A stretch of 64,000 bases of DNA from contig JAGIQG010000003.1 of NCBI GenBank assembly GCA_024679065.1, positions 57,970,001-58,034,000 of the forward strand, written 5' to 3'. Below are positions 9,001-15,000 of this stretch, piece after piece. Each line of letters begins with the position of its first letter. The first letter of the stretch is position 1. Made by a program: the position numbers. The stretch is from Sphyrna mokarran (lineage: Eukaryota).

Positions 9001-12000
9001 AATGTTTACCTGCCCACCGAATTATCTTTTTGTATGAAGGCTTACATTAATCATTTTACTTTATTGATGCTTTTAAGAAAAACTGTCTATTTATTTGTGT
9101 TATGGTGTGGCCATCACTGCCTTTCATTTCAGACCCTGGCATGAAAAAAGAGGGCATAGCATACAAGAGTAAGGAGGCTATGTTCAACTTATAAAATGTT
9201 CAGTCTCAGCTATAGCATTACATCCAGTTCTGAAAGCTGCACTCTGGGAAAGATATGAAGGCATAAGAGAAAGTGCAGAAAAAAAATATCCTGAGAATGG
9301 TTCCAGGGAGGAGGAACCTCAGTTAGGAAGATAAATTGGAAAAGTTAGAACTGCTTTCCTCAGCCAAAAAAAAAGATTGAGAAGATTTGATAGAGATATT
9401 CAAAATCATAAAGGTTCTGGAGGTAAAGAGGAGAAACTGTCCCCACGGGTGAAAGGATTGAGAATGAATGCGCACAGATTGAAAATAATTTGTAAAAGAA
9501 ACAGAACTGACACGAGGAAGTTTTTTTATGCACACAGCCAGGGTTAGGATGCTTTGCCTGAGAGTGTGGAGGAGGCAGGTTTAATTGAAGCATTCAAAAG
9601 ACAGCTGAAAAAGAATAATGTGCAGGGCGAAGGAGAGAAGTGGGAAGGACACCATGTGAGTTGCTCATTAGGAGAGCTGGTACAGCTCTAATGGACCGAA
9701 TGGCTTCCTGGGCTGAAAAAAATTGTGACTTTCAAAGCTGATCACACACAGAGCACAACTGGACACCCATAGTGGACTTAGCCGGTTGTACCCATTGAGT
9801 ACTGGTTCGTGTGTAAAGATTTATTGTGTTTTTTTAAATATAATAAATTTATCATAAACACCATGCACAGTGCCTGAGCCTTTGCACTGGAGCAGTGTTA
9901 CTGATAGCGAGTACAGGAGATTCCGGGAGCATTATTTGAATGGCTAGACAGATCATTTTCTCAAATGATGCAGGAAAGTCAATCATTAAAATCATTTCGC
10001 ATCGTTCAAAAACTCCTAACTCGAATGTTTAAAAAGTCGGTGTTCTCGAAGTAGATTGAACAGGTTTATTTAAATGTCTGTTCCAACACCCCCAATCTTT
10101 ATATACCCATGTCAAAATCACACTCAGGCACCTTGAAAACTATGAAGTTATTCAATCTTCATAGTGGACAGGAGAGATGGAAACACACACACACAGGATG
10201 ATTGATCAGGACACTGAATCAAGTATGTGTATGTGTGTGTTCTGCCAGGTACAAAGCCTATATTGTATGAATTAAGGGCACTGGTCTTACAAAACATTTC
10301 GGACCTAACAAGCAACTTTCGCCGGGCGCATCAATAAATAATTACCAACTTCCCTGCATGCATGTAAAAAAGGACATCATATAACTGACCTACATCTATT
10401 TCATAATGGAAATCTGAATTTACTGTCGCCGCCGAGCACAAACCCCAGCCTTTAACAAGTGATGCTATTAGATAGTGAACATTTCCAGAGAAAGATGTGG
10501 GCAAATATATTTGATTAAAGGTGCACTCAAGGATTCTTCACCGCGTTTGAATGCCATGCCTCACAAACGGGAGTGACCAAGATGTTTGGAACAGTCATAC
10601 TCCCAGACACAAAAGATCCGAGACTTTCTCTATTTTTAGCCAGAGTCGACCATCTCCCTTCTAAAGTTACTGCAACGCGTCAAATCGTTTCAGATATTAA
10701 TTTGGAGTGCCAATGAGAGTTTGTCCCCCCTCTCTCTGTGCAGGGTTTCATGCTCCTCTGTGCCATTTGGACGCTGGGAGAACCGATCGGAGGTCCCCAC
10801 TCTTCCCCACCTACACAAACATTTGCAGCCAACTCCAGGCGCTGCTGCCTCTCCTTCCTCACCAGTGCTGCAATGGTAAGGAGCAGTGCGAATCAAACAG
10901 CTAAAACGCGATATATCCCCCAGTGCTCTAGTCTCTGACCCTTCATTACTGGGGGATGTCTTAACAGTCACTTCCTGGTAGAGATACGGAGACTTGAGAT
11001 TTCCCCCCGCTCCTCCCATCCCCGCTAAGTTTTGGCTTCATCGAATCACACAGCACAGCGGAGGCAGCTTGACCCACTTATTTGAAAGATATTGAACTTA
11101 GCTCTGTTTGTGAAGTGAGGTGAGCCCGCCCTTCAGCCAGAGGTCATGATCAGAGGTTTGCCAACACTCAAGTTCCAGCAGGTACCAGTGCCGGATTTCA
11201 CAAAGCCCAGATGACTGAGAGCGAGGCGACATATGAATTGTATATTTAATCACTGGCTTGTAAGAGCAACTGTTACCCTCCTCCCAAAGCAAAAGGCTGG
11301 AGGGATTTAAAAAAGCAGCAAGTGCTGGAAATAGGCAGCGTCTAAAAGAAACAACAATTCACGTTTCCAATCAAATATGACTATTTCCAGCACTTTTTTA
11401 ATTTGCTCTTATTTCAGATTTCCAGCATTCGCAGTACTTTTTAAACACATAGTGCTGGAGGGAATGTTTCAATTCTTCCTTTCCGTCTTACGGCCGGAGA
11501 TTTTACGGGTCAGTGTGCATTTTAAACAAAATAATCGTTACGACCTTTCCTGGGGTGAGAGCGAATTATTAAAACACAAAGCTTACCTTTGACACAATAT
11601 TAACATGGTGCTGTCAAATTTTACTGGGGATGACAGATACTTCGACTTATCGGAAGGGTTGACTTTCAGAACGCCATGGTAAGTTAATCGATTTGCTCCG
11701 GCTGCTTTAAGGATTAATACTTGCGAAGTAGATGGCCCTTTAAGAACTGTCACCAGTCGGCGGAGTACAGCGCTGGAGCTGATCAGTTTAACGCAGCCGG
11801 ACAGTTTTGAGAGGAGGGTTAGCAGAATGGGGAACCTCACAACGTGTAAACCAGTGGCCTTCAAGAAATACTTGATGCAAAAAAAAATCCGGTGGACATG
11901 CTTACATAATATAGAATATTTTTTCTTATAGATTTGAAAACCTGTCTCTTTAATAAACAGTTAGTCCCATGTGACATTTTCTTGTAGAATAAAAAAAATT

Positions 12001-15000
12001 ACAAAGCCTGTTCTTAAACAAAATTATCTTACAAAGAGGACGGTGCTTAAATTAAAATATACTTAAGAGGCATTTCTTTTTGGTTAAGGTTATTGTAAAA
12101 GTTTGTATAATGATACATACTTGATTGTTACACAGAAGAGTTTAGGCACAGAGATGGGAGCAAAATATACGATTGGAAATGAGGAGTTAGATTTATTATA
12201 TCAATCGCTGCCATTGAGCTAACAAGGCAAGCACACAGAATTACATCGAAATTACACAAACCATTCGCCCAACAGGTCTGCCCATGCTTGTGCTCAGCAC
12301 TTCCACTTCTCACCGCGTCGATATGTCCTATTCTCTCTCTCCCTCTCCTTCAATGCACGTTTACACAATGTGAACACCAGTGTAATGCTAACGTGGATCT
12401 TAAAGCGTTGCCAGGGCGGGGGGCGAGAGAGGGAGGGAAGGAGGATGCTGCCTCTTTAAGGTGGTGGCTGAGTGAGGCAGCGCTGTTTGCTGTCTGATTG
12501 ACAAGAGGAGAGAGACGTTGTTAGTGCTTCCTTCCGCAGCCTCTCGGGTTCCCATCTCTCTCTTTCTCTCCCCCTCTCTCTCTTTCTATTCCTGCTCGGT
12601 AACTTTAAAGGAGGGATGCAGACTCTAGCGGCCTAAAATGGCTCTCTACCGATGGATTTATCCCCTGCTGCACACACTCCACTTCATCCTCAGCAGCGAT
12701 GCGGCCAGGACTTACCCAGCCAACGAGGGTAAGTTTCACTTTGGACAATCGTTACATTGAGACAGAAGAGCGAGAAAGAGAGAAAAGTTAATGGTGTGGG
12801 ATTTGAAATGTCTTGTAATGAGTTGAGGCACAAAACATTAACCGCTGGAATATTTCCTGCATGTTCATCGTATTGGAAGGAAGGGGCTTTGAAGTAAGAT
12901 GTTATTAGATCCGAATTGCTTTTGGACATCATGAAAGGAGTCCTCTCGATCTCACGGCTGCTTTATTAATATAGACTATTCGGCTCGTTTGTATTGTTAA
13001 TAATTTGCTGATGGAGCAGAAAGTTTACCAGATGTTGGTAAGAAATAGCCTTGAGGACAGGGTGAAGAATCCGCGTTTGGGTCCTTTCCCTTGAGTGCAC
13101 CTTTAATCAAATATATTTGCCCACATCTTTCTCTGGAAATGTTCACTATCTAATAGCATCACTTGTTAAAGGCTGGGGTTTGTGCTCGGCGGCGACAGTA
13201 AATTCAGATTTCCATTATGAAATAGATGTAGGTCAGTTATATGATGTCCTTTTTTACATGCATGCAGGGAAGTTGGTAATTATTTATTGATGCGCCCGGC
13301 GAAAGTTGCTTGTTAGGTCCGAAATGTTTTGCAAGACCAGTGCCCTTAATTCATACAATATAGGCTTTGTACCTGGCAGAACACACACATACACATACTT
13401 GATTCAGTGTCCTGATCAATCATCCTGTGTGTGTGTGTTCCCATCTCTCCTGTCCACTATGAAGATTGAATAACTCACTTGCAAGCACAAGGTGGCAGTC
13501 TTTCTCGCCTCAGGTTCTGCCACTGCTGATTTCAATCAGATTTCCTTCATGCAGGCGACACCATTAGGGAGTTTTAACATGATGGGCTTAGTTTTACTCC
13601 CTCTCTCTCTTTTCAAGTAATAACGTTTTTTAAAAACTGAAAAACATGATATAGAACATTTTTCTTACAGATTTGGAAACGTTTAACTTTTCACCCAGTT
13701 ACAATTTTTTGTAAGCTTTTTTTTTGTGTAACAATGTAGTTTGAACGACTGATTTAGCGACCAGTACACATATTAGGGCACTATCTTCTTAAAGCTTCAG
13801 AAGCCCACAATATTCCAACCCCCCCCCCCCCCCCCCTTTTTGGAGCACTTGTGAGGTTCAAGTTTTTCCCTTACAAAGCTTTTTCTACCCCCAGCTCAGA
13901 TGGAGATTTTTACTGTGTTGTTACTATGCAGAGGCTAGTTCTATGCTGTATTACCCAAGGGTTGTTACTCACATGATGACTTAGTGGGTTAATAGTGGGC
14001 TGGGCGTCACAATAAAGTCCAACATTGAATCTGTCCTTTTTCCACATGTTCCAGCAGGGGTCACTAGACAGCATAGGTGTCTGGACAGCATAAGTGGGAA
14101 ACTGAGCTGATTTCAGTCTTCCTCCTGCTCCTAGTACAATGCCAAGGATATTAAAGCTAATTGTAGTGCCCAAGTTGAGATCAGCTAACATTTCGCATTG
14201 AGCAGATCAGCCATGATGTAATCGAATGGTGAAACAGGCTCGCGGGGCTGAATAGCCTCTTGTTCCTATAAGCAACAAGGGGTCAAGTGCAACTTCTTGT
14301 TAACTGCAGATTCAGATTTAATGTTCATCATTTATACACAAACAGTATTGGCAGATGCTATACCCACAAAAGCTGATGTTAATCTTGAGGTGATGAGTCG
14401 AGCTAAGCAATGAGAAAAAGTAAGCTGCACAGTCCCATTGTTAGCCTTCATCAGGAGTGGTATTCAGGACCCTGCTTATATTTAACTGAGTCAGCCTTTT
14501 CAGTATCTAATGCTGTATTGGAGATGTGTCATTTCACAACAACAATGAACAGTCCAAAGCTTTAGGTATCCAGAGAAAGGAAGGCCAGTGCTTTTGATAG
14601 GTTGAACAATGTACATGCCCTACACTCTGTAAAAGATAAGTGCTTGAGTACTTTCAGCTTACCCTGGCCCATCTTGACATTCAGCAATTCTGTCTAATTT
14701 ACTGCTTAAAATGTTTTATAAAAAAAACGCACCATTTTGAGTCATTACTACAAAGTATAACAATAGGTCGATGGATAATTTTCTAATCATGAAACTAATT
14801 TCCTCATTTCTTTTAGCAAAAGTGGTTAACCCTTCTGTTCTGAAGACACAGACTCATGTAGCTTTGTCTCCAAAGATAGCCAACAATCTTCCTGTGCCCC
14901 TTCCAAGTAGTGAGTCGAGATAGCAAACATCAGCAGGCAAGGAGACTATAGAAGGATTACAATCAAATCCCATCTGCTTTCAGCTGATGTTCATGGTTCA

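What the first reader, a model, noticed from the sequence alone, without database searches (positions are those of the whole stretch)
10146..13475. Near-perfect 387-bp inverted repeat brackets the Eph promoter and signal-peptide exon: a potential invertible cassette
Seen: 10146-10532 is the reverse complement of intron-1 sequence 13089-13475, with 2 mismatches and an identical (AC)6 length. The arms enclose 2556 bp holding the promoter and exon 1. They resemble no transposon I recognise and are much less diverged than the repeats around them, so the duplication is very recent or homogenised by gene conversion. Inference: recombination between the arms would flip promoter plus exon 1 away from exons 2 onward (an on/off allele). 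The duplication also copies any intron-1 regulatory sites upstream, and a transcript spanning both arms would form long dsRNA looping out exon 1.
Basis: partly seen in the sequence, partly recalled or inferred. Interest (0 to 1): 0.8.

Follow-up and report, generated by a model that had tools for sequence, protein, structure and literature searches.

The report
Young inverted duplication flanking Eph exon 1
A 387-base piece of a shark Eph-receptor gene's first intron also sits, flipped, upstream of the gene; it is most likely a harmless copying accident and not a genetic switch, although rare recombination between the copies could break the gene.

Summary
Bases 10146-10532 are the reverse complement of 13089-13475 (385 of 387 match, no gaps, 2556 bp between them).

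- **What the arms enclose:** the real first coding exon of an EphA4b-like receptor gene (12638-12728; 29 of 30 residues match a basking-shark protein) and a CpG-rich, promoter-like zone.
- **How unusual it is:** every other repeat in the window is 65-88% identical.
- **Not transposon-like:** the arms have no target-site duplication, terminal repeats, poly-A tail, tRNA or Rfam match, and no third copy in 64 kb.
- **Edges:** they are sharp, which argues against an old repeat homogenised by gene conversion. Both junctions of the left copy carry short patches matching the right locus in direct orientation.

I read it as a local inverted duplication made by template switching during replication or repair. 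It is probably neutral.

The arms could support rare homologous-recombination inversions that detach promoter and exon 1, as in the human F8 intron-1 inversion. Nothing supports a programmed switch.

The normal transcript should contain only one arm, so the dsRNA idea needs an upstream transcript.

Read support, genome-wide copy number and orthologous loci could not be checked.

The parts
10146..10532 (.). Left arm of the inverted repeat, 2.1 kb upstream of the Eph start codon. Probably the derived copy.
   Evidence: 385/387 complementary to 13089-13475, no gaps.
13089..13475 (.). Right arm, in intron 1, starting 361 bp after the exon-1 donor site. Probably the source.
10531..10542 (.). 12-nt inward extension of the homology on the left. 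It overlaps the arm by the ambiguous GG.
   Evidence: Pairs with 13061-13072. 0 of 300 shuffles reach the score.
13061..13088 (.). Inner edge on the right: the 12-nt extension (13061-13072), plus the 18 nt (13071-13088) absent from the left copy in inverted orientation.
10139..10147 (+). 9-nt patch ACTATGAAG at the outer junction of the left copy. It is identical in direct orientation to 13456-13464 and forms a 9-bp-stem hairpin with 10157-10165.
   Evidence: the 7 flank bases match a 40-nt target at 0.37% of random window positions.
10541..10549 (+). 9-nt patch CCGCGTTTG at the inner junction of the left copy. It is identical in direct orientation to 13071-13079.
   Evidence: null rate 0.22%. 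These are the only two occurrences in the window.
10533..13088 (+). 2556-bp unique spacer holding the CpG-rich upstream region and exon 1.
   Evidence: The three ORFs of 104-125 aa inside it have no Pfam match.
12638..12728 (+). Exon 1 coding part: start codon, signal peptide, phase-1 end. GT donor at 12729.
   Evidence: (29/30 to P0003 residues 1-30).
12200..12637 (+). Presumed core promoter and 5' UTR. Inferred, not shown.
   Evidence: GC 0.47-0.56, CpG o/e 0.51-0.82. A GGGCGG-type box is read by eye at about 12414-12425 (motif recalled). No transcript data.
27075..27139 (+). Exon 2 (65 nt).
   Evidence: 21/21 to P0003 residues 32-52.
52725..53385 (+). Exon 3: ephrin ligand-binding domain and start of the cysteine-rich domain.
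   Evidence: EphA4, E 4.9e-122; PF01404, PF25599.

Best explanation
This is a genuine, evolutionarily young, local inverted duplication.

A segment of about 0.4 kb from the start of intron 1 of an EphA4b-like receptor gene was copied in reverse orientation to a site 2.1 kb upstream of the start codon. The opposite direction of copying is less likely but possible. The copying was done by DNA replication or repair that switched templates several times (FoSTeS/MMBIR-type or synthesis-dependent end joining), not by transposition.

The result is a passive structural feature. It has no demonstrated function.

**Shown:** the repeat, its sharp edges, the absence of transposon hallmarks, and the position of the exons.

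**Inferred:** the mechanism of origin, which arm is the copy, the position of the promoter, and the consequences below.

**Likely consequences**
- Occasional gene conversion between the arms.
- Rare homologous recombination between the arms that inverts the 2.6-kb spacer. That would detach promoter and signal-peptide exon from exons 2 onward, giving a loss-of-function allele. The logic is that of the human F8 intron-1 inversion.
For: **The repeat is real in the sequence and is a strong outlier**
- 385/387 identity against 65-88% for every other repeat in the window.

**Not transposon-like (unless stated)**
- The best flanking direct repeats are 2-4 nt for either arm, for the extended arms, or for the whole 3330-bp unit. 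That equals the null: 400 random 387-bp segments gave a mode of 3 nt.
- Arm ends are not inverted repeats of each other (10 of 40 positions match).
- There is no A-rich tail.
- 0 tRNA genes. 0 Rfam matches at gathering score. At E<=1 in 9900-13800 there are 2 weak matches, both at 12498-12593 and neither in an arm.
- No third copy of the arm in 64 kb.
- The spacer is host sequence. Exon 1 is conserved from sharks to a ray and a chimaera.

**A discrete event, not a conversion tract in an older repeat**
- Outer flanks have no residual homology: 87, 101 and 159 of 300 shuffles reach the observed score for 60-, 150- and 400-nt flanks.

**Template-switch signature**
- Both junctions of the left copy carry a 9-nt patch identical in direct orientation to sequence within 20 nt of the matching end of the right locus.
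- Each patch overlaps the inverted copy by 2 nt (AG, CC). The 18-nt skip is bounded by GG.
- Single-junction null rates are 0.37% and 0.22%.
- Every base of the left copy can be derived from the right locus. The reverse derivation leaves 9 bases unexplained.

**Recombination potential**
- The longest perfect block is 243 bp at 2.5 kb distance.
- Passages of PMC2583991: cutting uninterrupted homology from 232 to 134 bp reduced intrachromosomal recombination 20-fold in mouse cells. They give about 300-500 bp for human meiosis, with lower demands for repeats a few kb apart.
Against: - No reads, no second genome and no genome-wide search were available. Both an assembly artefact and a low-copy interspersed repeat remain possible.
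- The junction patches were noticed after looking.
- In the simple one-switch model the outer junction has no microhomology.
- The direction of copying is not settled. The alternative needs only one extra 9-nt insertion of unknown origin.
- Short-range template-switch events documented in humans are much shorter, up to about 125 bp (passages of PMC9435742). This would be an unusually long one.
- At 0.5% divergence and shark mutation rates the copy may be millions of generations old. Some gene conversion therefore cannot be excluded.
Confidence: 0.65

Rival explanations
1. The arms are two independent, recent insertions of an unrecognised low-copy interspersed repeat (a non-autonomous transposon or SINE-like element) that landed in opposite orientations on either side of exon 1.
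For: The edges are sharp. 387-414 bp is a typical size for a non-autonomous element. No transposon library (Dfam/Repbase) and no shark genome were available, so family membership could not be looked up.
Against: - No target-site duplication beyond the null, no terminal inverted repeats and no A-rich tail.
- No tRNA-like head or Rfam match.
- No other copy, even a diverged one, in 64 kb, while the window's real interspersed families each recur several times at 65-88%.
- Two insertions 2.5 kb apart of a family otherwise absent from the window would be a coincidence.
- The direct-orientation patches at both junctions are not expected from transposition.
Confidence: 0.13
2. The left arm (or the whole arrangement) is an assembly artefact, for example a chimeric or mis-joined long read, or a mis-resolved heterozygous structural variant.
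For: Nothing in the sequence points to it directly. It cannot be excluded, because no reads were available.
Against: - The copies differ by two transitions and an 18-nt indel, and they have unique, clean junctions on all four sides.
- The structure lies more than 10 kb from the window's ends, and the window contains no N.
- By general knowledge (recalled), palindromic read artefacts are fold-backs without a 2.5-kb unique spacer.
Confidence: 0.1
3. One reading: the arms make promoter and exon 1 an invertible cassette that is flipped often enough, in the germ line or somatically, to serve as an on/off allele. Alternatively, the arms act through a long dsRNA.
For: - The geometry fits.
- The 243-bp perfect block at 2.5 kb is within reach of homologous recombination.
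- Inverted repeats do drive recurrent inversions in humans (passages of PMC3961182; there the repeats are 1.6-24 kb).
- The arms would form a 385-bp duplex of -733 kcal/mol if co-transcribed.
Against: - Only one orientation is seen, and it is the functional one.
- Enzyme-mediated promoter inversion is described for bacteria. All 8 listed papers of 72 concern bacteria (listing and abstract starts only).
- 14 of the 61 ORFs of 90 aa or more were scanned. Apart from the Eph exon, they gave only a weak remnant-type domain and no recombinase.
- The zebrafish paralogue is needed for hindbrain boundary formation (passages of PMC7997972). A frequent null allele would probably be selected against.
- The presumed start site lies between the arms, so the normal pre-mRNA holds one arm only.
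- Each arm alone is not unusually structured (z -0.6 and -0.7).
Confidence: 0.04
4. The arms are the footprint of a past inversion of the spacer by staggered breaks. That model leaves inverted duplications at inversion breakpoints (recalled from Drosophila work; no paper seen here).
For: Inverted duplicates flanking a segment are what that model produces.
Against: It requires the spacer to be inverted relative to its ancestor. Exon 1 is collinear with exons 2 and 3, and the gene is conserved with the same N-terminus across cartilaginous fishes. So the spacer is in its native orientation, and two successive inversions would be needed.
Confidence: 0.02

Closest known systems
Human F8 intron-1 inversion (int1h-1 / int1h-2 repeats)
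   Same: One repeat copy lies in intron 1 and one inverted copy lies outside the gene on the 5' side. Intrachromosomal recombination between them prevents a full-length mRNA (passages of PMC7098248).
   Different: int1h is 1041 bp and its copies are about 140 kb apart, and inversions are actually observed (2-5% of severe haemophilia A). Here the arms are 387 bp and 2.6 kb apart, and no inverted allele has been seen.
[quoted passage not shown]
   Same: Highly identical inverted duplicates flank a unique segment. They are a substrate for recurrent inversion and gene conversion (PMC3961182 passages; PMC2583991 passages).
   Different: Those repeats are 1.6-24 kb and the inversions 5-226 kb. This one is at the lower limit of efficient homology, so flipping should be far rarer.
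Template-switch mutations and FoSTeS/MMBIR-type complex rearrangements; snap-back synthesis in alternative end joining
   Same: They give an inverted copy of nearby sequence, short microhomologies, and small templated patches in both orientations at the junctions (PMC9435742 passages; PMC7954356 and PMC5728401 abstracts only).
   Different: Documented short-range events are at most about 125 bp and lie within a few hundred bp. This copy is about 400 bp and 2.5-3.3 kb from its source.
Bacterial invertible promoters (invertons, phase variation)
   Same: Inverted repeats bracket a promoter, so that inversion turns a gene off.
   Different: Those are enzyme-mediated, with short repeats and a dedicated recombinase (abstract start of PMC10028968). 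Here the organism is a vertebrate, no recombinase was found, the arms are long, and the cassette also carries a coding exon.
DNA transposon with long terminal inverted repeats
   Same: Two long, near-identical inverted termini bound a 3.3-kb unit.
   Different: There is no target-site duplication (4 nt at best, within the null), no transposase, and the interior is a conserved host exon with its upstream region.

Membership tests
NAHR-prone inverted low-copy repeat pair (F8 int1h type) | Two copies in inverted orientation, one inside intron 1 and one 5' of the gene | tested here: met
   arms at -2.1 kb and +361 bp relative to exon 1. Exons 2 and 3 lie downstream on the same strand.
NAHR-prone inverted low-copy repeat pair (F8 int1h type) | Uninterrupted identity at or above the minimal efficient processing segment | tested here: inconclusive
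   The longest perfect block is 243 bp. That is above the 134-232 bp range reported for mouse cells and below the 300-500 bp estimated for human meiosis. Proximity lowers the demand (PMC2583991 passages). No value is known for sharks.
NAHR-prone inverted low-copy repeat pair (F8 int1h type) | Inverted alleles actually occur | not testable with these tools
   No reads, populations or other shark genomes were available.
Transposable element (single element with long TIRs, or two MITE/SINE copies) | Target-site duplication flanking the element | tested here: not met
   2-4 nt at best for five boundary definitions. The null from 400 random segments has a mode of 3 nt and a maximum of 7.
Transposable element (single element with long TIRs, or two MITE/SINE copies) | Element-type termini (own TIRs, poly-A or simple-repeat tail, tRNA-derived head) | tested here: not met
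   (10/40 terminal matches, no A run). (no tRNA or Rfam match in the arms).
Transposable element (single element with long TIRs, or two MITE/SINE copies) | Many dispersed copies in the genome | not testable with these tools
   Only the 64-kb window could be searched, and it holds no third copy. No eukaryotic genome collection was open.
Site-specific invertible promoter (inverton) | Dedicated recombinase and short recognition repeats | tested here: not met
   The arms are 387 bp. 14 of 61 ORFs of 90 aa or more were scanned with Pfam without any recombinase; 47 were not scanned.
Site-specific invertible promoter (inverton) | Both orientations present in a population of cells | not testable with these tools
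   No reads.
Replication/repair template-switch duplication (FoSTeS/MMBIR-like) | Junction microhomology and templated patches from the donor region | tested here: met
   9-nt direct-orientation patches at both junctions with 2-nt overlaps. Null rates are 0.37% and 0.22%. The finding is post hoc, so it is suggestive only.
Replication/repair template-switch duplication (FoSTeS/MMBIR-like) | An ancestral empty site without the copy | not testable with these tools
   Needs orthologous loci of related sharks.
Eph receptor gene, EphA4/EphA4b group (context gene) | Ephrin ligand-binding domain and cysteine-rich domain, with closest relatives named EphA4/4b | tested here: met
   PF01404 2.8e-65, PF25599 4.1e-24; EphA4 chains best, 4.9e-122; hits named ephrin type-A receptor 4b or 3-like.

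The most novel reading that the evidence does not exclude
The 2.6-kb cassette really does flip in living sharks by homologous recombination between the arms. This could be a segregating germ-line polymorphism or somatic mosaicism. It would make a reversible on/off allele of a developmental Eph receptor: a vertebrate counterpart of a bacterial invertible promoter that needs no dedicated recombinase.
Probability: 0.04. Interest if true: 0.75.

Novelty: new member of a known kind. Interest (0 to 1): 0.25.

Why it matters
If real, this is a clean natural example of a small inverted duplication bracketing a promoter and first exon. It is the same architecture that causes the F8 intron-1 inversion in people, at a much smaller scale.

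It could be used to measure how short and how close inverted repeats can be and still drive inversion or gene conversion in a slowly mutating vertebrate genome.

Its junctions may preserve a readable multi-step template-switch scar.

For the gene itself it marks a predictable route to null alleles.

It is not evidence of a new regulatory mechanism.

Tried and rejected
- **Older, larger repeat with a converted core:** rejected. There is no residual homology beyond the outer edge.
- **A 7-nt CACCTTG match in the outer flanks:** chance (87 of 300 shuffles do as well).
- **Structured RNA or a known RNA family in the arms:** none. Rfam gave 0 at gathering score, and the 2 weak matches lie outside the arms. 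There were 0 tRNAs. Arm folding z-scores were -0.6 and -0.7.
- **Coding content in the spacer other than exon 1:** three ORFs of 104-125 aa, no Pfam match.
- **Recombinase or transposase near the repeat:** none among the 10 longest other ORFs. 47 of the 61 ORFs were not scanned.
- **Staggered-break inversion footprint:** rejected on exon orientation.
- **Not attempted because no open collection holds eukaryotic DNA:** genome-wide copy number of the arm and orthologous shark loci.
- **Joined exon model:** none was built or searched. The exons were handled one by one.
- **Supplements of the cited papers:** not seen. They bear on no claim made here.

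
Full report
**1. The observation**

The inverted repeat is real and sits at the stated coordinates. The repeat finder reports arms 10146-10532 and 13089-13475: 387 nt, 99% complementary, 2556 nt apart. blastn gives 99.48% with 2 mismatches and no gap.

The mismatches are at 10181/13440 and 10289/13332. Both are A on the left against G on the reverse-complemented right, and neither is at a CpG. 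Perfect blocks of 35, 107 and 243 nt remain. (AC)6 is the same length in both arms.

The homology continues inward. After 18 nt found only on the right (13071-13088), bases 10531-10542 pair with 13061-13072. No shuffle out of 300 reaches that score for 60-nt flanks.

The window has no N.

**2. How unusual it is**

Self-comparison of the 64 kb gives 31 repeat pairs. The other 30 are 65-83% identical. The 13 other inverted pairs of 40 nt or more are 42-94 nt long at 71-88%. The arm sequence has no third copy in the window; the other matches are 12-19 nt, or microsatellite-like.

**3. The gene**

The gene runs on the + strand.
- **Exon 1:** ATG 12638 to 12728, GT donor at 12729.
- **Exon 2:** 27075-27139.
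- **Exon 3:** 52725-53385.

I handled the exons one by one and made no joined model.

Exon 3 carries the ephrin ligand-binding and cysteine-rich domains. Among solved structures it is closest to EphA4 (4.9e-122). In the protein collection the best hits are cartilaginous-fish proteins named ephrin type-A receptor 4b or 3-like. The top hit is from Cetorhinus maximus (reported as 100%, though I read one K/R difference), followed by Hemitrygon, Chiloscyllium, Callorhinchus and Carcharodon.

Exon 1 is 29/30 identical to residues 1-30 of the Cetorhinus protein and 80-83% identical to the other three full-length proteins. Exon 2 is 21/21.

So the window comes from a shark, whose species I did not determine, and not from a human. 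Exon 1 is the conserved first coding exon.

In zebrafish, epha4b is one of two paralogues of EPHA4, a gene family that regulates hindbrain boundary formation (passages of PMC7997972).

**4. The promoter is inferred**

CpG observed/expected is 0.35-1.08 in all 18 windows of 200 bp from 9800 to 13399, against 0.23 for the whole window. This is a CpG-island-like zone that contains both arms. There are no transcript data. A GC-box-like motif at about 12414-12425 was read by eye, and the motif is recalled.

**5. Is it a transposon?**

No hallmark was found.
- Flanking direct repeats are 2-4 nt for five boundary definitions. Random 387-bp segments give a mode of 3 nt.
- The two ends of an arm are unrelated (10 of 40 positions match).
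- There is no A-rich tail.
- There are no tRNA genes.
- There are no Rfam matches at gathering score. The 2 matches at E<=1 both lie at 12498-12593, outside the arms.
- The three spacer ORFs have no Pfam family.
- The 10 longest other ORFs give only one weak domain, PF09004 at 7644-7949, which I take (from recall) for a retroelement remnant.

Genome-wide copy number could not be tested.

**6. Recent duplication or gene conversion?**

A conversion tract inside an older repeat should be flanked by diverged homology. The outer flanks show none: 87, 101 and 159 of 300 shuffles do as well. The inner side shows only the exact 12-nt extension. The edges are sharp, which favours one discrete event.

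Divergence is 0.0052. With the epaulette-shark rate of 7e-10 per site per generation (passages of PMC10587355), that is about 3.7 million generations. The range from the Poisson interval on two differences is 0.45-13 million generations. The copy is therefore young relative to other repeats, but old enough to be shared by related species.

**7. Junction anatomy**

Both ends of the left copy carry a short patch that matches the right locus in direct, not inverted, orientation.
- ACTATGAAG at 10139-10147 equals 13456-13464.
- CCGCGTTTG at 10541-10549 equals 13071-13079.

Each patch overlaps the inverted copy by two bases. The outer patch makes a 9-bp-stem hairpin with 10157-10165.

Seven-base flanks match a 40-nt target at 0.37% and 0.22% of window positions. 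The patches were noticed after looking, so I treat them as suggestive.

They fit serial template switching with 2-nt microhomologies, as in FoSTeS/MMBIR-type events or snap-back synthesis. Sources are the abstracts of PMC7954356 and PMC5728401 and passages of PMC9435742, where the longest events are about 125 bp.

Deriving the left copy from the right locus explains every base. The reverse derivation leaves 9 bases unexplained. I therefore slightly favour the left arm as the copy.

**8. What it can do**

- **Recombination.** The longest perfect block (243 bp) at 2.5 kb distance is within reach of homologous recombination (passages of PMC2583991). A crossover would invert the spacer and detach promoter and exon 1 from exons 2 onward. 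This is the logic of the F8 intron-1 inversion: 1041-bp repeats 140 kb apart, found in 2-5% of severe haemophilia A (passages of PMC7098248). Larger inverted repeats drive recurrent inversions in humans (passages of PMC3961182).
- **dsRNA.** A hypothetical + strand RNA over 10100-13520 would pair 382 of 387 arm positions in register, with a duplex energy of -733 kcal/mol. The likely start site lies between the arms, so this needs an upstream transcript.
- **Arms alone.** Each arm on its own is not unusually structured.

**9. Verdict**

The switch interpretation is geometry only. Enzyme-driven promoter inversion is a bacterial phenomenon in the papers I could list: all 8 listed of 72, from listing and abstract starts only.

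The most likely reading is a neutral, fairly young local inverted duplication made by replication or repair. It carries a latent capacity for rare inversion and gene conversion.

An assembly artefact or a low-copy repeat family cannot be excluded without reads, the whole genome and related genomes. None of these was available.

Noticed in passing
window 11904-11951 and 13644-13690: There is a 48-bp direct-orientation match of about 83%, with one copy upstream of exon 1 and one in intron 1 just beyond the right arm. It beat all 200 shuffles (none reached its score) and has no other copy in the window. It may be the trace of an older local duplication or a shared motif. It ends in a polypyrimidine-CAG that looks like a splice acceptor.
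   Followed up: partly
window 26247-26444 (relatives at 30918-31043 and 59392-59487): A 198-bp self-complementary element: arms of 93 nt at 85%, with a 12-nt loop. Diverged partial copies lie elsewhere in the window. It looks like a MITE-like or hairpin repeat family in intron 1.
   Followed up: no
window 3416-3735, 15530-15772, 22836-22948, 29889-30199, 33546-33753, 62874-63199: An interspersed repeat family at 65-88% identity occurs in both orientations. Part of it looks tRNA-related by eye, although ARAGORN calls no tRNA. It is the typical old repeat background against which the 99.5% arms stand out.
   Followed up: no
window 7644-7949 (+): This ORF has a weak PF09004 (ALKBH8_N) match, E 1.6e-05. 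I take it (from recall) for the tail of a decayed retroelement protein.
   Followed up: no
protein P0010 (Carcharodon carcharias): The annotated 'isoform X1' of the white-shark orthologue starts inside exon 3 (MRTYQVCNV...) and lacks the exon-1 and exon-2 residues. This could be an annotation or assembly gap at the 5' end, or an alternative start. It is worth a look when orthologous exon-1 regions are compared.
   Followed up: no
window 9800-13400: A CpG-island-like zone (CpG o/e 0.35-1.08 against 0.23 for the window) extends about 2.8 kb upstream of the ATG and about 0.7 kb into intron 1. Both arms lie inside it, and none of the arms' CpGs has decayed between the copies.
   Followed up: partly
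window 12729-27074 and 27140-52724: Introns 1 and 2 are about 14.3 kb and 25.6 kb. In zebrafish, cryptic last exons arise in long introns of epha4b (passages of PMC7997972). Whether the shark introns hold such an exon was not examined.
   Followed up: no
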